DNA of 20,000 bases from Pachysolen tannophilus NRRL Y-2460 (Eukaryota), in NCBI GenBank assembly GCA_001661245.1, contig KV454012.1, forward strand, positions 2,173,614 to 2,193,613, written 5' to 3'. The notes below the pieces were generated by a model. That model made no database searches and was not told where the DNA came from. It worked only from the letters and a program-made list of their open reading frames with translations. How positions within the stretch are numbered: the first letter of the stretch is position 1; the number at the start of each line of letters is the position of its first letter. Positions 5,901 to 20,000 of the stretch are shown here, piece after piece. A program made the translations under genes and the position numbers.

Positions 5901-6932
5901 TTAATATGTTGCGTTTAATCTCATACTAAGATATTCTAAAGCGTTAATTGGCTCATATTTCTTTGGGTTTTCTTCAGAGTATGTTCCAGGTAAACAATCA
6001 ATTGTCTTTGTTCTATCAGCGCTGATAAAGAATGGAATTGAGTATCTAACTTTTGAGTATCCAGTTTCCGATATAATAGGTGGGGCTCTAACTCTATGTA
6101 AGGTAGATTTTAACAGGTTATTTGACCATCTCATAAGAAAATCACCAGTATTTACTACGAGTGCACCGGGGACATAAGGAGCTGGAATGAAAACTCCTTT
6201 ATGATATGGGTCTTCAACTTCTAAGCCTCCGCAACTATCTTGAAGTAATAAAGTCATTGTACCGAAGTCTGTATGAGCAGCAATTCTTTCAGTAGAACCA
6301 TTTCTTAAATCTTGTTCTTTTGTAGGTGGATAATGTAATAATCTAAGTTGATTTTCACTATCAATATGATAATTTAAGAAAAAATCTTCATTTAAGTCCA
6401 TTCCAAGAGCAAGTGCTCTTAAAAAATATTTAGAAGTTAAAGTGGCTTTATTATAATAATTTTGGCAACCCAGTTTAAAACCAGGAATATCTGTATCTTC
6501 TGGCCAAAAATTACAATAATATCCATCTTCTTTACCAACATCAAAAGATTCTTTAACATCTGGATGTTTCCTCAAATTGGAAATCTCTTTTTCATCAAAA
6601 ACCATTTGAACCACTTTTTCTTTACCAAGAGCTGACCAACCTCTATGATGTGCACCATTTGGAGGATGAGGGCATTTAGATTTTTGTTCATCGGATAATT
6701 CAAAAAATTTCTTGGACCATTCAAAAATATCATCAATTTCTTTTTGCTCAATACCGTGATTAATAATATACATGAATCCAACTTCACGTAATACTTTTAC
6801 CATTTGCTTACCAGTTTCTAATTTTTCTTCAGGTTTACCCGAAAAAAAAGGCGAAAAATCAATAATTGGGAGAGAAGAAGTCGGAGAAGTTGTTGTATCA
6901 ACAACTTCAACTGTAGTGGTAACAGAGGACAT
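5901..6932 (-). CDS. 2-oxoglutarate/Fe(II)-dependent dioxygenase (DIOX_N + 2OG-FeII_Oxy; thymine-7-hydroxylase/IPNS-like fold)
   Basis: 343 aa with LPIIDFSPF, GFMYIINHGI, HRGWS..G.E, DVKESFD, LRLLHYP, facial triad HTD..HRV, and the 2OG-binding RYS motif. Confidence 0.95.
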   Translation of the reverse strand: MSSVTTTVEVVDTTTSPTSSLPIIDFSPFFSGKPEEKLETGKQMVKVLREVGFMYIINHGIEQKEIDDIFEWSKKFFELSDEQKSKCPHPPNGAHHRGWSALGKEKVVQMVFDEKEISNLRKHPDVKESFDVGKEDGYYCNFWPEDTDIPGFKLGCQNYYNKATLTSKYFLRALALGMDLNEDFFLNYHIDSENQLRLLHYPPTKEQDLRNGSTERIAAHTDFGTMTLLLQDSCGGLEVEDPYHKGVFIPAPYVPGALVVNTGDFLMRWSNNLLKSTLHRVRAPPIISETGYSKVRYSIPFFISADRTKTIDCLPGTYSEENPKKYEPINALEYLSMRLNATY

Positions 6933-7032
6933 ATTGGAAAACTACTTTATTTGGAATATTACTCTACCTAGTAAGCTAACTTTTTCTTCTCTTCTGTTTT
7001 TGTTCTTTTTTGTTTTTGGGACTTCTGTAGAG

Positions 7033-7134
7033 CTTATCCGACTATATATATATATTTATGTTGAAGATCATCTTTACCCAAGCGTAGATAAGAAAAGGTG
7101 GGCACCTCTATTTTCTTGGTGGAGGATGTTTATC
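7033..7134. promoter_or_regulatory. Upstream element cluster of the dioxygenase gene: CTTATC, GATAAGAAAAGGTGGGCAC, GGTGGAGGA, TTATC
   Basis: 7087-7105 differs from 3059-3076 by one extra A; GGTGGAG is at 7118-7124. Confidence 0.65.
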
Positions 7135-7281
7135 TTGCATATATTGTATGCATGGTTATAAACGTTTGATTTCTTGACTATATTTAAAATCTGATCAAAA
7201 TGATTAGAGTTATCATGTGATTTCATAAAATGTATGGGAATCAGTTTCTAAAAATTGAATTAAGGAACATGACATAGAATT

Positions 7282-8154
7282 TGCAGTTTAAGAAGATTAT
7301 TACAACCTTATAAAGAAACACATAAAGAGTACCAGATGAATTGTTTCTCCCAGTATTCTAGATTTATTTCTTTACATGGGTTATTAAATATTTGCTATGA
7401 TTTGAAATATAGAGGATTATTTGATTTAGGTATTTTAACCAAGAAAAGATTATTTGACTTGGTTATTAGATTACAGCATGCATTTTTAAGTTGGAAAGAT
7501 TATTTTGATAGGCATATCTCGATTACAAATAGATCTGAATGTGATGAAGTTTTAAACGACTATTCTGCATCTCCTATATTCTGGTCAAATTTAACAATTT
7601 TTAAAATTGCGTTAATTTCGTTGTATGTTGATACTTCTACAATATTGAAATATTCATCAAATTTAAATGATCATAAACTTATCACAAAAATTCAAAATTG
7701 GACAAAATCGTCTGAGGGAGAATCATGCGTAATTGAAAGTTGTCGCTTTCTTATAATAGTCATAAATAATGTCGAAATAATCCATTCCGTTCCTCATGTT
7801 GCATATTGTACTTTTTTGGTATGTCTCATTCTTTGGTCTTTTGAAACAAACAGGCAAATATCAGCTTTTAATTCTACAAATATGCTTACCCCATTAACAC
7901 CAAGAAAATATTTTGATGCAGACAATAACTTATTAATTGAAACTGTAGGAAATGATGCAACAAATTACCTTTCTGGAATATTAGAAAACAACAATATCAA
8001 TGTTGAAAATTTTGAAGAATACTGTACAAGACAACAGCAAGTGATTGCTTTAATCACTTATATTATTGGGATATTAAAAGAAAATTGTAGTTGGGAAAAT
8101 ATTGGTCCACGAATCGAAGTTTTAGAAAAGGTACTAAAAACTTATGATGAGTAA
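7282..8154 (+). pseudogene. C-terminal half of the C2H2/Fungal_trans transcription factor, displaced to the opposite strand by an apparent inversion (could be translated alone from ATG 7336, 272 aa)
   Basis: The frame is open from 7273: (HRI)CSLRRLLQPYKETHKEYQMNCFSQYSRFISLHGLL..LQHAFLSWKDYFD..IQNWTKS..PHVAYCTFLVCLILWSF. This resembles the C-terminal region of fungal-specific TF domain proteins and lacks a DNA-binding domain. Confidence 0.75.
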
Positions 8155-8315
8155 ATATTTACAGTAGAGTATATATGTTTTCGTTTTTTCGTTTCTATTA
8201 AATTAACTAGTTTGATCTTATACAAGGTGGTAATATCACTATTTGTAGAACCTTTGAAAAAAAAAAAAAAATTTTAAATCACTGTATCATTCCAAAGTCT
8301 CTATATCCTTTTTGC

Positions 8316-10002
8316 CTAATGAAAAATAAAAAAAGAAAAGAAAAAAAAAGAAAACCATAATTTAAGAAATAAAAAATTTGGCCATCTAGTTTCTATTTTG
8401 ATACTAGATAATAATGGAGTATTTGAATTTGCATCATTTAGTTCAATAGATGGTTTTTTTCTTGGATTTAAATTCTTAGGTTGTAAATCGTACTGTTCAA
8501 AAAACTCATTTAAATCACTTGCATTCCATACGTTATCTGTACAAGGTAGTTCCAAATTAATTTCAAAAATTGAAAGATGTTGATCAAGATTAAACAAAGC
8601 AGCATGCTGTGAATCACAAATATATGCAAAAAAAGCAGTTCTTTTACTTGTTTCATAAAGAATCCAGTCATTCCATGAACTTTTGTCGCTCACCAGAGGT
8701 TCAACCAAACCTTCTAAAAAACGTAAACTTTTCAATAAATTTATGTTTAAGCCATGGAAAAGTATGGATTTCTTTAATTGTAGGTCTGTTCCACAATATT
8801 TTCCAAAATAATTATTAAGTAACAAAGCTTGGAAAATACTTAATTCTAAATTATCTTCAAAATTATTCACTTCATAAAGTAACAATTTTCTCAATGAATC
8901 ATGAACTAATAATGAAATTTTATAATGACATGTATATTTACTGTATGCCATTCCAATATTCAACATACTTACTAAAAGATAAATATTTGTCTTACTTGGG
9001 TCAAACGTTGGGAAATGGATAATTGGATAAATTGAATTGAATTCATTCCAATATAATTTTAAAAAATCGTCAAAGTCTTCAATTAATAAGGAATTTAAAT
9101 CATCCAAGTTTAAAAGTTGTAATATTTGAAATCTAGTCTCTTCGCTTAATAAGTTAAAATTATTCAAATTTGCTTGTTCTCGATTCATAGTAGATAATAC
9201 TGGTGATAGACTTTCAAAAAATAATTTGTCAGGTTCAAATTCAAGGTTATTTAAATTACCAAATAACCAACCATAATTATCGCGATATTCACTAAATGCA
9301 TTGGGTGGGGTAGCTTTTTGATGAATACCAGAAGACTCAGTATCTATCCCTTGATTAAATAAATGATTTTGATTTTTCTCTTCCATCTTTGAATGTGATA
9401 TATTTTCAAGTCCTAAAGTATCTGAGGCATTTTGCATTGGGTTAAATATATTCCGTAATGATAGATTTTTGGATGATGTATTAAGTGAACTATCTGTACC
9501 ATAATCAAAAGATGAAGTTTCTTTAAATTCTTTTGACACAACTTTATTACCAATTGATGAATTCAGTTCCAAATCATTCGTAATTTGGTCATTATATTTA
9601 CATGGTATATCGGCTTTTCTCTTTTGATGAGATTTTGATTTGAAATGCCTAGAAAGGGAAGAAATGATACATTTATTCTTAGTAAATAATTCTCATTATT
9701 ATAATCCAATAAATTGGAAAAATATAAATACTAACTTTATTAACAAATCTTTCCTTGCAAAACCCAGCTGACATTGACGGCAATTGAATGGTTTCACTTC
9801 GCTATCTAATATAAAAAGTTAGTAATTAAATTTCATCTAATCCATACAAAAATTTAAAATAAAATAAAATTGCATACGATTCCCTTTATGTCTCAATAAA
9901 TAATCAACTCTAGCAAAAGATTTGTCGCAACCTGGATGTGAACATTTGAATTTTTTCTCCTTTATCGAATTCTTCTTGATTAGATTATCTATTGAGTTGG
10001 AC

Positions 10003-10004
<2 letters not shown>
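8316..10004 (-). CDS. C2H2 zinc-finger + Fungal_trans transcription factor (Adr1/Mxr1/Tda9-like architecture), N-terminal part; exons 10004-9878, 9805-9736, 9648-8316; homologous sequence ends at ~8368
   Basis: Splicing two introns gives finger 1 CSHPGCDKSFARVDYLLRHKGNH and finger 2 CRQCQxGFARKDLLIKHFKSKSH. Then LYWNEFNSIYPIIHFPTF, WNDWILYETSKRTAFFAYICD and LELPCTDNVW (Fungal_trans). After WPNFL the frame runs into poly-A-derived sequence (LKLWFSFFFFSFFIFH*). Confidence 0.88.
9649..9735 (-). other. Spliceosomal intron 2 of the C2H2 TF (87 nt)
   Basis: GTTAGT donor, TACTAAG branch variant, pyrimidine tract and TAG acceptor. Removal completes finger 2 in frame with the long ORF. Confidence 0.85.
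9806..9877 (-). other. Spliceosomal intron 1 of the C2H2 TF (72 nt)
   Basis: GTATGC donor, TACTAAC branch point (9824-9818) and TAG acceptor. Removal creates the last His of zinc finger 1. Confidence 0.9.

Positions 10005-10034
<30 letters not shown>
10003..10034. repeat. Interrupted (AT)n microsatellite abutting the start codon of the C2H2 TF
   Basis: ATATATATACATATATATATATATATATATAT seen directly. Confidence 0.85.
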
Positions 10035-10490
10035 CTAATTATGTTTAATTTGATAGTATAATCTATAAGAGAAGGATCGCTATCTGAAAATTGTCAAATT
10101 TAGGCGAAATTTTTTTTCAATTAAAAAAAATAAATAAATACAAAAAAAAAACGGATTGAAGTCTTTCGTTCCTTAGTTATTTAATATTTAATATTAGTCC
10201 AGATAAAATTTCCTCTCTGAGGTTTTTTATTTAAAGTAAAATATTTATCATACAGTACTGAAACACTGGCCTTCTGTTTACAAGCTGTACAGATTCCCGA
10301 ATCGAAGAAATAAAAGAAGAATATAAAAAGTAGAAAAAGTATAAAGATAAAAAAGATAGATAAAATAAAATAAAGTAAAATAAAATAAAAAATTAAGAAA
10401 AAAAAGAAGAGAAAAGAAAAGACAAGAAATAGGGACAAACCAAATTGTAAGATTATCCTTGAAACGAATATTATTTAAAGATTTTAAAAA

Positions 10491-12041
10491 TTAGTAGGAA
10501 TATTTAAACTCCAAATTCTCCATATCTGTTAAGTCAGCAAATTCGGAATTTGGAATTTTTTGATAACTGTCACCTAATTCCAGTATTTTCTTAGCCTTCT
10601 TTTTATTTCTTAATGAAATGATGGTCAACATCAAAGAAGGAGCAATTAAACACAATGTGAAAGTAGATACCATAACTTTCTTTGCTGTTGGATAATTATC
10701 TTCACTTTCTGAACCTAAGAAAGTTTGTGGTCCAATCATATTACCAGCACAGAATCCAATTAAAAATACAGAGTTTAACGTAATTTTTTTAGTATAACCA
10801 GCAACATTTGTTGAAATACAAGAAGCCATAGTTGCATAACTAGCAGTAGAAAAATAAGACAAATAGTAACCAACCATTTGAGCTCCTTTAGGAGAACTGA
10901 AAGCCAATAAACAAAGTCCTGTGAACATACAAGAATTTATGAAAAGACACATTGCAAGTCTACTAGGAACAAATTTTTGTTGAATAAATGCAAACAATAA
11001 TGGGAAAACAATATCAATTCCACTTCCAACCATGTTCATCAAAAGAGCATTTCCAGTAGAGAATCCAAAATTATCTTTCAATAAGATTGATCCGAAATTA
11101 CCAATACCTCCATTTGGTATACCATAACCAATCATATAGAAAAGGAAAAGATATGTATTAGGATCCATTAATGCTTCTTTAAATTGATACATCTTGAAAT
11201 AATGATTTCCAAAACCTTGATTATTAATTCTGATTCTTTCAACAACATAAACTTTTTCCTTTTCATTCAAAAACCAAGCTTTAACTGGAACATCAGGAAT
11301 ATGCAAATATGAAACAACAGCAAAGAAAATAGTAATCACACCTGTAATTATATATAAAAGTCTCCAAGATGCAATCGCATTACTACCTCCATGTTTATAC
11401 AAGCCATAAGCAATTCCTGAACCTAACATTGTACCAAAACCTTCGAATCCCAACCAAACACCACATCTAACATATTGTTCAGATTTTTTGTACCATTGAG
11501 AAGTTAAAAGAATATAAGCTGGAGTCATAAAACTTTCAAATATCCCAAGCAATGTACGACAAGCAAGAAATGATGCTGCTGAATGACAGGCACCGTGACA
11601 ACAAATAACAACTCCCCAAGCAAGAATAGCCAGAGCTAAAGTTTTCGATAAGGGAAACCTTTGCAACAGCATGTTTGCCGGAAATTCAAAAATTAAAAAA
11701 CCAAGATAGAAAGAACTCGCAACCCATGAATATTCGCTACTACTCATGTTCAAATCCGTTTGTAAACCCATAATAGAAGCATATGAATTAGTCGACTTAT
11801 CCATAAGTTGAATAGACATCAATATCGACATAATTGGCATAATGTAGCAATCAATTTTACGAACAAGTTTTCTTTCAAACTCTTCATCGATTTCGATTTC
11901 CGGATCCTCGACAGCATACTTGTAAGCTAAATCAGCTTTTTTTTCATTAAATTCAACAGTCGTTAAAGATACAACATTTGTAACTGCTGCATGCTTTTCT
12001 AAATCAATAGCGCTACTTCTGGAAACAGCAGATTCAACCAT
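10491..12041 (-). CDS. MFS transporter, anion:cation symporter / allantoate permease (Dal5/Yct1-like) family
   Basis: 516 aa with LVRKIDCYIMP, QLMDKS, YSWVASSFYLG, EFP..LQRFP, RTLLGIFES, WYKKSEQ, SWRLLY, PD.P..AWFL, NVAGYTKK, GNMIGPQTF and the C-terminal FADLTDMENLEFKYSY. Confidence 0.95.
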   Translation of the reverse strand: MVESAVSRSSAIDLEKHAAVTNVVSLTTVEFNEKKADLAYKYAVEDPEIEIDEEFERKLVRKIDCYIMPIMSILMSIQLMDKSTNSYASIMGLQTDLNMSSSEYSWVASSFYLGFLIFEFPANMLLQRFPLSKTLALAILAWGVVICCHGACHSAASFLACRTLLGIFESFMTPAYILLTSQWYKKSEQYVRCGVWLGFEGFGTMLGSGIAYGLYKHGGSNAIASWRLLYIITGVITIFFAVVSYLHIPDVPVKAWFLNEKEKVYVVERIRINNQGFGNHYFKMYQFKEALMDPNTYLFLFYMIGYGIPNGGIGNFGSILLKDNFGFSTGNALLMNMVGSGIDIVFPLLFAFIQQKFVPSRLAMCLFINSCMFTGLCLLAFSSPKGAQMVGYYLSYFSTASYATMASCISTNVAGYTKKITLNSVFLIGFCAGNMIGPQTFLGSESEDNYPTAKKVMVSTFTLCLIAPSLMLTIISLRNKKKAKKILELGDSYQKIPNSEFADLTDMENLEFKYSY

Positions 12042-14508: not shown

Positions 14509-14535
14509 TAACTTAATATAACTTAATATAACTTA
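14509..14535. repeat. Short tandem repeat (TAACTTAATA x ~2.7) overlapping the stop codon of the Zn2Cys6 gene
   Basis: taacttaata taacttaata taactta seen directly. Confidence 0.7.
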
Positions 14536-16721
14536 TACATATGCAGGTAATACTAGTCCATCGGCTTCTGCAATTTCGCACCAATTAACATATGTCATGC
14601 CATTTTGGTTTAATGTCCAAACTTTTTGTGTCAACTTAATGATAGTCAAAAATTTTTCACTTTTTCTAATTTCATATATGTCGTAAAGATTTTCAACAAA
14701 CCATTTCCTGTAATTATCACCAATCAAATCACATCCAAAAACAAATATTGGCAAAATCAAGTAAAAATTAAAATCTTCATTCTGTTCGTCGAGATAACTT
14801 TTGAATATTTCAGTTAGAATTGGTAACGATCGCCTTACCAGTAGTATCGTCGCCGTTGATGACGAATTATTATTGTAAATTAACTGAGATATAAAGAGAT
14901 AACATACTTCTTTTGAGAATAAAAACAAATTCTCAATAGGTGTGAAGCTCAGTTCTGTATCAGATTCAGCTGACTCTGTTGAAATAGTAACTAAATCTAG
15001 CTGCTGCTCAAGATCCTTAGCTTCTGATAAAACTCTCAGAAGACTGTCCTCATGCATTACACCGTAGTCATTAATGTTGGACGATATTTCACTGCCATTT
15101 CCACATTTTGCTACTCGTAGCAAATTAGATAAATGTGATATTCTGCCATAAATTTTGAATAGTCTTTTCCAGTTTTTGTAAGCTAAACTATCATGTTCCT
15201 GCACTGATATTTCGTATATATATTTGAATTCATCTGCAGTTAAAAAATACCGATCATTTACCAACGAAGTACTATAATTAAAATTTGACAAGTAATAATA
15301 GCTGAAAACTCGAGAAAAAAAGGATCCCGTAGAAGTCTTTGTTAAATTCTCTACACCTCCTCTTAATGATATCATTTTTCCCATTAAGTTTACGAGTCCA
15401 AACCAATATTTAGCAGTATTTTCAGCTTTGAGGTTTTCAATATATAACAATAGCAAAACAATAGACATGGTATGATCACAGCAAACAGCAGACCTAAAGC
15501 TCAATCTGTGATTTAATTCAACTATTATTTCATTATATAAATTCTCAATTATGTTGGATGCGTCCTTTAGCTTGCTTTCAGAAGATTTGCTGCTGTGCAA
15601 ATTCCAAGCAGACCATAATAATAAAGTTTTGAAAACAGTAACATTACTGAAAGCTAACGGAAGATAAACGGTCAAGATCAATGTTGTTTTCTGTTTTGCA
15701 AGGAAACTATTTGAGCACGACGAAAAATACAATTTATTGGTTTCATTGGGGAAATTTTCACAAAAATTGAAAAATAACAACTCAATGATATCTGAAGTTA
15801 AGTATGGGGGTAGATTCCCTAATTCCAATAAAAATTGGCGTTCGTTTTCATTTTTTGTTGGAAGAGAATCATTGAAATTAATGAAGGAAGGAGCTTCAAG
15901 GTATAAAATATTTTTTAATGATTCAGCATTTACTTCAACAAGCTGAAGATTTTTATCATTAGTAGCATCTTTTGGTTTCTTCTTGCGACTAATGACTGAC
16001 CCTCCATTATATTGTAAAAGATAAAAGTAATGGTTATCATCCAAATCATTTCCAGGAACTTCATCTCCTTCAAAGCAGTTTAACAACATTTTTTTCAGCA
16101 CTTCTTTCAGCTTTACTTTATCATAGCCATATATGATTTTACTATTCTCGTCAATCAATGTGTCCTCATTTATTATTGGTATTTCTTGCATAGTTTCATA
16201 TAAAATATTTTTCTGATCTGCATTGACCACAATTTGCTTTTTTTCATATAATTTAGTTAATCCAACAGAACCTATGGTTGATGTATACGTAGATCCAGCA
16301 CCTGAGCTTTGATGGTTACATTTAAAATAAGTTTTAACAACTTCAGCAGCGATGACTAAGCTCTGATTACTGGTAAGATATCTAATTTCAATCGATAATC
16401 CACCAGTGACTGTTTTAAGAAACGGTTCTTCAAAAGCATCTTTTTTTCCAGGGAGCTTTCTGGTCTTCTTTTGATCCAGTCCATCAAAGTGAATAATTTT
16501 AATATCCGGTATCTCACAGGGAATATTCTTTTTTGAACAATATGAACAGCTGGTGGAGCCTCTGGTAATATCACATTTTTTACTGTAAAGATGAATTTTC
16601 ATTTTAAGATTAGTACACCTATCATTGAAACCCGTATGAACTTGATCTATACATACTTTCGAGACTTGCACAGCAAACATCCGCGTCGCTGAATACTTCC
16701 TTTTCTGATCCTCTTCAACAT
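14533..16721 (-). CDS. Zn(II)2Cys6 transcription factor with a Fungal_trans_2-like C-terminal domain; exons 16721-16657 and 16582-14533
   Basis: The spliced N-terminus MLKRIRKGSIQRRGCLxCKSRNKKCDITRGSTSCSYCSKKNIPC contains all six Cys. C-terminal LPIFVFGCD..RKWF..KVW..NW resembles PF11951-type factors. The track's N-terminus (MFAVQV..) reads through the intron. Confidence 0.88.
16583..16656 (-). other. Spliceosomal intron within the zinc cluster (74 nt)
   Basis: GTATGT donor, TACTAAT branch point and TTTACAG acceptor. Removal joins Cys1-2 to Cys3-6 in frame. Confidence 0.9.
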
Positions 16722-16853
16722 CCTATGGCATTAAAGTGTATTTCTTGTTTTCTGATAATACCAACCAACCATCTTGGATTAATCTGCATTATTTTTATAT
16801 TTTGCCTTCATCGGCAAAGGAAAATCACAATGTCCCAAATAGGCAACTTTTAA

Positions 16854-19780: not shown

Positions 19781-20000
19781 GTGGTGGTGTGGTGGTGTGG
19801 TGGTGTGAGTGGTGTGAGTGGTGTGAGTGGTGTGAGTGGTGTGAGTGGTGTGAGTGGTGTGAGTGGTGTGAGTGGTGTGAGTGGTGTGAGTGGTGTGAGT
19901 GGTGTGAGTGGTGTGAGTGGTGTGAGTGGTGTGAGTGGTGTGAGTGGTGTGAGTGGTGTGAGTGGTGTGAGTGGTGTGAGTGGTGTGAGTGGTGTGAGTG
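19781..20000 (+). repeat. Telomeric repeat array: 3 x GTGGTGGT (19781-19804), then 21 full + 1 partial GTGAGTGGT (19805-20000)
   Basis: Perfect G/T-rich tandem array running 5'->3' to the end of the sequence and containing the GGTGT core common to budding-yeast telomeres. Confidence 0.92.

What the first reader, a model, noticed from the sequence alone, without database searches (positions are those of the whole stretch)
7273..10004. Cluster transcription factor split by an internal ~1.09-kb inversion; halves face each other and rejoin in frame
Seen: the minus-strand C2H2/Fungal_trans gene loses coding character right after ..KIETRWPNFL(F) at ~8368. A plus-strand frame gains coding character at ~7282-7285 with (C)SLRRLLQPYKE.. 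and runs to 8154. Flipping ~7283-8368 gives one continuous ORF (..WPNFL[C/F]SLRRLLQPY.., ~782 aa) on the minus strand, the same orientation as the three genes to its left. Neither half has internal stops or frameshifts. Inference: the options are a very recent inversion that disables or rewires the regulator, a polymorphic or switchable allele, or an assembly error. The N-half keeps both zinc fingers (509 aa as it stands) and could act as a deregulated activator or competitor. The C-half now lies divergent from the dioxygenase promoter and has its own ATG (7336), so it could be expressed separately.
Basis: partly seen in the sequence, partly recalled or inferred. Interest (0 to 1): 0.85.

Follow-up and report, generated by a model that had tools for sequence, protein, structure and literature searches.

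The report
Yeast regulator gene split by inversion
In the Pachysolen tannophilus genome assembly, a zinc-finger transcription-factor gene near a chromosome end is cut in two by a base-perfect 1.08-kb flip of its back half, which most likely disables it; reads have not yet confirmed the flip.

Summary
The window is Pachysolen tannophilus NRRL Y-2460 (name) and is subtelomeric: a telomere-like 9-nt array lies at 19784-20000. A C2H2 + Fungal_trans (PF04082) regulator is in two pieces. The N-part is on the minus strand, 10004..8316, with three exons and 509 aa. The C-part is on the plus strand, 7285..8154. All 13 full-length homologues aligned carry one continuous motif, WPxFL[W/F]SLRRLMQPY. Here WPNFLF ends the N-part and SLRRLLQPY starts the C-part. 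Flipping 7285-8366 (1,082 bp) restores a 782-aa frame with no residue lost or gained. The cut lies inside PF04082 and inside a confident helix. The two parts are predicted to pack as one domain. The breakpoints have no inverted repeat (longest match 6 nt), so a recombination switch is unlikely. Both parts keep the family's conserved residues and show no decay. The flip is therefore either very recent (under about 1% neutral divergence) or both parts are under selection. I could not lay reads, so a misassembly stays open at about 0.2. Best reading (0.55): a real, recent end-joining micro-inversion that inactivates the regulator. It is an ordinary kind of lesion in an unusually clean example.

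The parts
9878..10004 (-). N-part exon 1 (ATG at 10004). Encodes the first C2H2 finger up to ..RHKGN.
   Evidence: The prefix is identical to deposited model P0059.
9806..9877 (-). Intron 1: GTATGC .. TTACTAAC .. AG.
9736..9805 (-). N-part exon 2. Encodes the end of finger 1 and most of finger 2.
   Evidence: zf-C2H2 scores 24.4 bits with two stretches, just under the 25.2 cut-off.
9649..9735 (-). Intron 2: GTTAGT .. TTACTAAG .. AG.
8367..9648 (-). N-part exon 3, the homologous portion. It ends ..IKIETRWPNFLF (residue 493) and carries PF04082 profile positions 1-212 of 262.
8316..8366 (-). Non-homologous tail of the N-part: 16 codons (LKLWFSFFFFSFFIFH) plus a TAG stop. It is read from the reverse complement of the former 3' UTR.
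7285..8366 (.). The inverted segment, 1,082 bp. Breakpoints are 7284|7285 and 8366|8367, with 1 nt of ambiguity.
7285..8154 (+). C-part coding sequence: SLRRLLQPY.. to ..KTYDE plus TAA, 289 homologous residues. The first ATG is at 7336, and the deposited protein P0013 (272 aa) starts there.
8155..8366 (+). 212 nt of the gene's original 3' flank, carried along with the C-part.
   Evidence: inference from the breakpoint positions.
7273..7284 (+). Four in-frame codons (HRIC) that are not homologous to the family. They come from the old intergenic DNA and are preceded by TGA at 7270-7272.
6933..7284 (.). 352-bp spacer between the dioxygenase ATG (6932, minus strand) and the left breakpoint. It is now a divergent spacer between the dioxygenase and the C-part.
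5901..6932 (-). Neighbouring 2OG-Fe(II) dioxygenase (DIOX_N + 2OG-FeII_Oxy). Context only.

Best explanation
A real and evolutionarily recent micro-inversion has broken the gene. The segment is 1,082 bp (7285-8366) and holds the last 289 codons of a C2H2 + Fungal_trans transcription-factor gene plus 212 nt of its 3' flank. It was cut out by two breaks and re-ligated in the opposite orientation without homology. This is an end-joining type event with at most 1 nt of microhomology. It splits one folded regulatory domain into a 509-aa N-fragment and a C-fragment. The N-fragment holds the zinc fingers, four fifths of PF04082 and a 16-residue nonsense tail. The C-fragment has lost its promoter and now faces the dioxygenase promoter. 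The most likely result is loss of function of this subtelomeric regulator in the sequenced strain. Both pieces still look intact simply because too little time has passed for decay. Shown: the two pieces, their exact junction, the missing inverted repeats, and the cut inside the domain. Inferred: the end-joining mechanism, the recency, and the loss of function.
For: The junction is exact to the codon against full-length homologues. All 13 aligned homologues are continuous across it, and two read WPNFLF-SLRRLMQPY. Of the 46 non-self relatives of the C-part, 41 are 570-1319 aa and carry the match well inside or at their C-terminal end. The next best identity after self is 42%. The named relatives from Scheffersomyces stipitis, Priceomyces carsonii, Kuraishia capsulata, Ogataea haglerorum and Spathaspora passalidarum are single proteins of 708-757 aa. 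The breakpoints have no inverted repeat: the longest inverted match within 40 nt is 6 nt, against a null mean of 6.5. The 8-nt direct match is reached by 17% of random window pairs. The window has no N. The cut is inside PF04082. The intact homologue P0016 matches profile positions 3-261 over residues 210-526, with the junction at 455|456. The N-part here matches only positions 1-212. In the AlphaFold2 model of P0016 (pLDDT 79.8, pTM 0.76) the junction lies in helix 453-461, in a 10-residue block of mean pLDDT 91. This is just after a disordered loop at 422-441. The two parts are predicted to pack as one body. The score is 0.88 and the best of 3 controls is 0.01. That mark was reached by 51 of 78 solved complexes and 2 of 108 mismatched pairs. 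On eukaryotes it was reached by 39 of 65 solved pairs and 2 of 126 unrelated pairs. The runs agree in at least 73% of contacts, and the partner's pLDDT is at least 73. Because these are two pieces of one domain, the pass shows that they belong together, not that they meet in a cell. There is no sign of decay. The C-part keeps 29 of 31 near-invariant family columns. The N-part keeps 46 of 51, and its 5 misses lie at the start of the ORF. I assign those misses to intron read-through in my raw translation, by position only; I did not re-align the spliced protein. Intact homologues keep 0.81-1.0 in leave-one-out tests. If the gene were neutral, the chance of no stop or frameshift drops below 5% at 0.6-1.25% divergence. 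The locus lies about 10-12.5 kb from a telomere-like repeat array. From general knowledge, that is a rearrangement-prone setting.
Against: Only one assembly was seen. Both deposited proteins occur on a single 2.19-Mb contig. I saw no reads across either junction. Five runs from two studies each hold 0.96 of the sampled words of 6500-10500. I cannot tell whether the junction words are among those held. A flip with no base lost or gained at the coding junction is also what a small contig placed the wrong way round would look like. Intact frames in both pieces fit selection on a functional split just as well as they fit recency. No expression or phenotype data exist.
Confidence: 0.55

Rival explanations
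1. Assembly or finishing artefact. The strain carries an intact 782-aa gene, and a 1.08-kb piece was put into the assembly in the wrong orientation.
For: The flip is base-perfect at the coding junction. The right breakpoint sits beside A-rich homopolymer tracts at 8322-8376, where assemblies can break. Only one assembly's proteins are in the databases. No read-level check was possible.
Against: There is no N and no inverted repeat at either breakpoint. From general knowledge, those are the usual causes of orientation errors. The left breakpoint is in ordinary sequence. Five runs from two studies hold 0.96 of the sampled words of the stretch, but the junction words could not be singled out.
Confidence: 0.2
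2. Functional gene fission. Both pieces are expressed: the C-part from the now-divergent dioxygenase spacer, and the N-part from its own promoter. They reassemble non-covalently into a working regulator, or each has taken on a role of its own.
For: Both frames are intact and keep the conserved family positions. The C-part has an ATG at a position where 4 of the 13 aligned homologues also have Met, so no new start codon was needed. The halves are predicted to pack with a score of 0.88 against a best control of 0.01. That mark was reached by 51 of 78 solved complexes and 2 of 108 mismatched pairs. The runs agree in at least 73% of contacts, and the partner's pLDDT is at least 73. The cut comes only about 14 residues after a disordered loop.
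Against: None of the other 46 relatives shows a split at this motif. The five short ones are 188-506 aa. Of those, P0024, P0045 and P0057 have the WP motif intact, P0049 has it well inside the protein, and in P0056 my motif search found none. Intact frames are equally expected after a very recent break. Four upstream ATGs on the plus strand (7200, 7215, 7230, 7269; read) would burden translation from a far-upstream start. The complex pass is expected for any two pieces of one domain.
Confidence: 0.15
3. A programmed or culture-polymorphic invertible segment that turns the regulator on and off.
For: The species does carry out a nitrogen-starvation-induced inversion at MAT (PMC6692504, passages). 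The flip here restores a perfect reading frame.
Against: The MAT system uses 2-kb inverted repeats around an 8-kb region. Here the longest inverted match at the breakpoints is 6 nt, which is no better than chance. If repeat arms existed, the plus frame would read WPNFLF upstream of SLRR. It reads TGA-HRIC instead.
Confidence: 0.03

Closest known systems
HxnR of Aspergillus nidulans, the nicotinate-cluster regulator, and its relatives Klf1 (S. pombe) and AN6733
   Same: The architecture is the same: two N-terminal C2H2 fingers followed by PF04082 (PMC5746545, passages). Like HxnR, it sits beside a 2OG dioxygenase and an MFS transporter.
   Different: Orthology is not shown. The nearest relatives include Debaryomycetaceae species, a family reported to lack hxn clusters (PMC8478523, passages). 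That paper also says the P. tannophilus hxn cluster holds an hxnM gene. In this window, none of the ten ORFs of 150 aa or more matched Pfam families of the enzyme classes the paper gives for hxnM, hxnT, hxnV or hxnX (deacetylase/imidase, flavin oxidoreductase, further oxidoreductases). This judgement is mine, from the family names. The paper's supplements, which show the yeast clusters, could not be read.
Flip/flop mating-type inversion of P. tannophilus and other yeasts
   Same: It is a chromosomal inversion in the same species, and its orientation decides what is expressed.
   Different: At MAT an 8-kb region is flanked by 2-kb inverted repeats and flips by recombination (PMC6692504). Here the segment is 1.08 kb, has no repeat, and cuts through a coding domain.
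Gene disruption or gene fission by a small inversion (a general class, recalled from general knowledge rather than from any call)
   Same: Two breakpoints, one inside a gene, leave two head-to-head or tail-to-tail gene pieces.
   Different: This case is unusually clean. No residue was lost or duplicated, both pieces are intact, and each has been deposited as a separate protein.

Membership tests
C2H2 + Fungal_trans (PF04082) fungal transcription factors | PF04082 domain | tested here: met
   The N-part scores 95 bits against a cut-off of 23, but covers only profile positions 1-212 of 262. The rest lies in the C-part, as shown by intact P0016, which matches positions 3-261.
C2H2 + Fungal_trans (PF04082) fungal transcription factors | Two N-terminal C2H2 zinc fingers | tested here: inconclusive
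   zf-C2H2 gives two stretches at 24.4 bits, just under the 25.2 cut-off. The Cys/His pattern is visible in P0059. Relatives carry PF00096.
HxnR orthologues (nicotinate regulon) | Orthology to A. nidulans HxnR and residence in an hxn gene cluster | tested here: inconclusive
   No HxnR sequence was available to compare. The window holds a dioxygenase and an MFS transporter, but I judged none of its ten large ORFs to be of the hxnM, hxnT or hxnV type. The nearest relatives occur in a family said to lack hxn clusters. The paper's supplements were unreadable.
Recombination-driven invertible switches (flip/flop type) | Inverted repeats flanking the invertible segment | tested here: not met
   The longest inverted match within 40 nt of the breakpoints is 6 nt, against a null mean of 6.5. 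No arm pair near 7285 and 8366 appears among the 25 longest inverted repeats shown, out of 539 found.
Recombination-driven invertible switches (flip/flop type) | Both orientations present in a population | not testable with these tools
Functional split genes (fission) | Both parts separately transcribed and translated | not testable with these tools
   No run on record as RNA was listed. Both parts have been deposited as proteins, but a deposit is not evidence of expression.
Functional split genes (fission) | The split is conserved in relatives | tested here: not met
   None of the 46 non-self relatives is split at the motif, and the closest relative is only 42% identical. No sister strain or species was available.

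The most novel reading that the evidence does not exclude
The inversion is a true, stable gene fission. The C-part is transcribed from the dioxygenase's bidirectional spacer. The regulator is therefore completed, by non-covalent assembly of its two domain pieces, only when that cluster promoter fires. This would be a feed-forward wiring created by a single 1-kb flip.
Probability: 0.1. Interest if true: 0.65.

Novelty: new member of a known kind. Interest (0 to 1): 0.33.

Why it matters
If the inversion is real, the type strain of a biotechnologically used yeast carries a broken, or at least rewired, regulator. It sits next to a subtelomeric set of transporter and oxidoreductase genes. That could explain a strain-specific nutritional trait, and it means the two deposited proteins (489 aa and 272 aa) are pieces of one gene. 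It is also a textbook-clean natural example of a homology-free micro-inversion with codon-exact junctions. That makes it useful for studying end-joining rearrangements near telomeres. It also offers a natural split-domain experiment on the Fungal_trans regulatory domain. If it is an artefact, the reference assembly and two gene models need correcting.

Tried and rejected
No junction reads were seen.

Expression: no RNA holder was listed.

Whole genome: none is held for this window.

Metagenome scan with a 32-nt pattern just inside the C-part: 0 matches.

Earlier scan notes: nothing by place, by sequence or by words.

Supplements of PMC8478523, which show the yeast hxn clusters and the HxnR tree, were not readable.

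Foldseek of the P0016 model against the PDB: no match with E <= 0.001. Only the zinc fingers matched, to WT1, Zif268, Klf4 and Adr1 at probability 1.0. No solved fold was found for the regulatory domain.

Atlas look-ups returned only generic C2H2/Fungal_trans and Fe2OG dioxygenase clusters. NCBIfam had nothing for either TF part.

A splice explanation: TTTGCAG at 7279-7285 looks like an acceptor site. However, there is no GT donor directly after WPNFLF on the minus strand. The homologous proteins are continuous across the junction. I rejected it.

The third 'intron' in deposited model P0059 (GTATCA..TTAG) lacks the TACTAAC-type branch point that the two real introns have. I treat it as a modelling artefact.

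A larger or alternative inversion that moved the N-part would need two events, so I rejected it on parsimony.

Literature: 'Pachysolen tannophilus' + 'inversion' found 14 papers, 13 of them listed. 'PACTADRAFT' found 1 paper, on P450s. I saw no report of this split, and I read passages in only two of the papers.
Full report
**What is there.** The window has 32% G+C (base counts) and no N. The deposited protein P0059 names the organism as Pachysolen tannophilus NRRL Y-2460. This yeast reads CUG as Ala. Two CTG codons lie in the N-part and none in the C-part. The right end of the window, 19784-20000, is 24.3 copies of a 9-nt unit, GTGGTGTGA, with the G-rich strand running towards the end. The locus is therefore subtelomeric. 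The transcription-factor ATG is 9.8 kb from the array and the left breakpoint is 12.5 kb from it.

The neighbouring genes are as follows:
- On the minus strand to the left: a LIM_bind protein, an aldo-keto reductase, an NCS1 nucleobase/allantoin-type permease and a 2OG-Fe(II) dioxygenase.
- To the right: an anion:cation-symporter-type MFS transporter (-), a flavocytochrome b2-like gene (+), a Fungal_trans_2 gene (-) and a sarcosine-oxidase-like flavoprotein (+).

**The two pieces.** The N-part starts at ATG 10004 on the minus strand.
- Exon 1 is 10004-9878.
- Intron 1 is 9877-9806 (GTATGC .. TTACTAAC .. AG).
- Exon 2 is 9805-9736.
- Intron 2 is 9735-9649 (GTTAGT .. TTACTAAG .. AG).
- Exon 3 runs from 9648 to the TAG at 8318-8316.

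This gives 509 aa with no internal stop, and the first 481 aa equal P0059. The N-part carries two C2H2 fingers, scoring 24.4 bits against a cut-off of 25.2, and PF04082 at 95 bits. The C-part is the plus-strand frame 7273-8154. From ATG 7336 it is identical to the deposited 272-aa protein P0013. It matches no Pfam family on its own.

**They are one gene.**
- A search of 1.84 billion representative proteins with the C-part gave 47 hits at E <= 0.001. One is the window's own P0013.
- Of the other 46, 41 are 570-1319 aa and carry the match well inside or at their C-terminal end. The best non-self identity is 42%.
- Five hits are shorter, at 188-506 aa. P0024 and P0045 begin about 45-50 residues before an intact WP motif. 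P0057 ends soon after its WP motif. P0049 has the motif well inside the protein. My motif search found none in P0056. None of the five is split at the motif.
- Against P0003 (1036 aa), N-part residues 421-442 align to 669-690 and C-part residue 5 aligns to 691. P0004 gives the same order.
- All 13 full-length homologues in the alignment run without a break through EGxWPxFL[W/F]SLRRLMQPY. P0016 (Kuraishia capsulata) and P0017 (Ogataea haglerorum) read WPNFLF-SLRRLMQPY.
- Here the N-part ends WPNFLF at residue 493 (TTT = 8369-8367). The C-part begins SLRRLLQPY (AGT = 7285-7287).
- The inverted segment is therefore 7285-8366, 1,082 bp, with 1 nt of positional ambiguity.
- Turning it round gives 493 + 289 = 782 residues with nothing lost or doubled.
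- The four plus-strand codons before S (HRIC, after TGA 7270-7272) are not homologous to the family. Nor are the 16 minus-strand codons after F493.
- The segment also carries 212 nt of the gene's former 3' flank (8155-8366). A single inversion of this segment is the only one-step path from an intact minus-strand gene.

**Where the cut falls in the protein.**
- In the intact homologue P0016, PF04082 covers residues 210-526 (profile positions 3-261) and so spans the junction at 455|456. The P. tannophilus N-part reaches only profile position 212.
- An AlphaFold2 model of P0016 from a 29-row alignment has mean pLDDT 79.8 and pTM 0.76. It shows a disordered loop at 422-441, then helix 453-461 containing the junction, in a block of mean pLDDT 91.
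- Folding N-part 180-442 together with C-part 5-293 gave a score of 0.88, with the best of 3 controls at 0.01. That mark was reached by 51 of 78 solved complexes and 2 of 108 mismatched pairs. On eukaryotes it was reached by 39 of 65 solved pairs and 2 of 126 unrelated pairs.
- There were 138-173 contacts. The runs agree in at least 73% of their contacts, and the partner's pLDDT is at least 73.
- Because these are two pieces of one domain, the pass shows that they form one interlocked body. It does not show that they meet in a cell.
- Foldseek found no solved structure for this domain. Only the zinc fingers matched.

**How it could have arisen.**
- Within 40 nt of each breakpoint, the longest inverted match is 6 nt. 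Random pairs of 80-nt windows average 6.5.
- The longest direct match, TTTAAGAA at 8 nt, is reached by 17% of random pairs.
- There are therefore no repeat arms for homologous recombination.
- The known programmed inversion of this species, at MAT, uses 2-kb inverted repeats around 8 kb and is induced by nitrogen depletion (PMC6692504, passages). This locus does not resemble it.
- The junctions fit two breaks rejoined by end joining. That mechanism is inferred, not shown.

**Age and consequence.**
- The C-part keeps 29 of 31 near-invariant family columns.
- The N-part keeps 46 of 51. Its five misses are at the very start of my raw ORF translation. I assign them to intron read-through by position only; I did not re-align the spliced protein.
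- Intact homologues keep 0.81-1.0 in leave-one-out tests.
- In these two frames 6.4% of possible substitutions create a stop. With indels at 5-20% of substitutions, an unselected gene would have less than a 5% chance of remaining intact beyond 0.6-1.25% divergence.
- The break is therefore either very young or both pieces are under selection. With no closer relative than 42% identity, I cannot separate these two readings.
- I favour a young, disabling lesion. The cut removes a large buried surface from each piece, the C-part lost its promoter, and subtelomeric genes are often broken. That last point is general knowledge.

**What stays open.**
- I could not see reads. 
- Five runs from two studies each hold 0.96 of the 420 sampled words of 6500-10500.
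- About six of those words should span the junctions, by my estimate. The figure cannot tell me whether they are among the words held.
- The absence of N and of inverted repeats argues against the usual kinds of orientation error. The base-perfect flip and the homopolymer-rich right breakpoint keep a misassembly at about 0.2.

**Identity of the regulator.**
- The architecture is that of HxnR, Klf1 and AN6733 (PMC5746545, passages).
- PMC8478523 (passages) says that P. tannophilus has an hxn cluster with hxnM, and that Debaryomycetaceae lack such clusters.
- This window has a dioxygenase and an MFS transporter. I judged none of its ten large ORFs to be of the hxnM, hxnT or hxnV type.
- The closest named relatives include Debaryomycetaceae species.
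- I therefore do not file it as HxnR. The paper's supplementary figures, which could settle the point, were unreadable.

**Verdict.** The kind of lesion is known, but this instance appears to be unreported in the searches I ran. Interest is modest unless the split proves functional.

Noticed in passing
window 19784-20000: There are 24.3 tandem copies of a 9-nt unit, GTGGTGTGA, with 99% matches. The G-rich strand runs 5'->3' to the window end. This looks like the telomere repeat of this yeast and makes the whole window subtelomeric.
   Followed up: partly
window 14533-16722 (-): This is a Fungal_trans_2 gene. Its ORF start shows only the second half of a Zn2Cys6 pattern (C-x8-C-x2-C-x6-C), and a search for the full pattern found none. 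The first half may lie in an upstream exon or may have been lost.
   Followed up: no
window 8312-8397 (-): Deposited model P0059 splices out a third 'intron' (GTATCA .. TTAG), giving the tail KKDIETLE. Unlike the two zinc-finger introns, it has no TACTAAC-type branch point. It is probably a modelling artefact caused by the broken gene.
   Followed up: partly
window 6933-7335: The spacer now shared by the dioxygenase and the C-part holds three GATA-type sites (AGATAA at 7086; TTATCT at 7130; TTATCA at 7210). It also holds four plus-strand ATGs ahead of 7336 (read).
   Followed up: no
window 8154-8318: After the flip, the stop codons of the two pieces face each other 162 nt apart. Any transcripts would converge and probably overlap at their 3' ends.
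   Followed up: no
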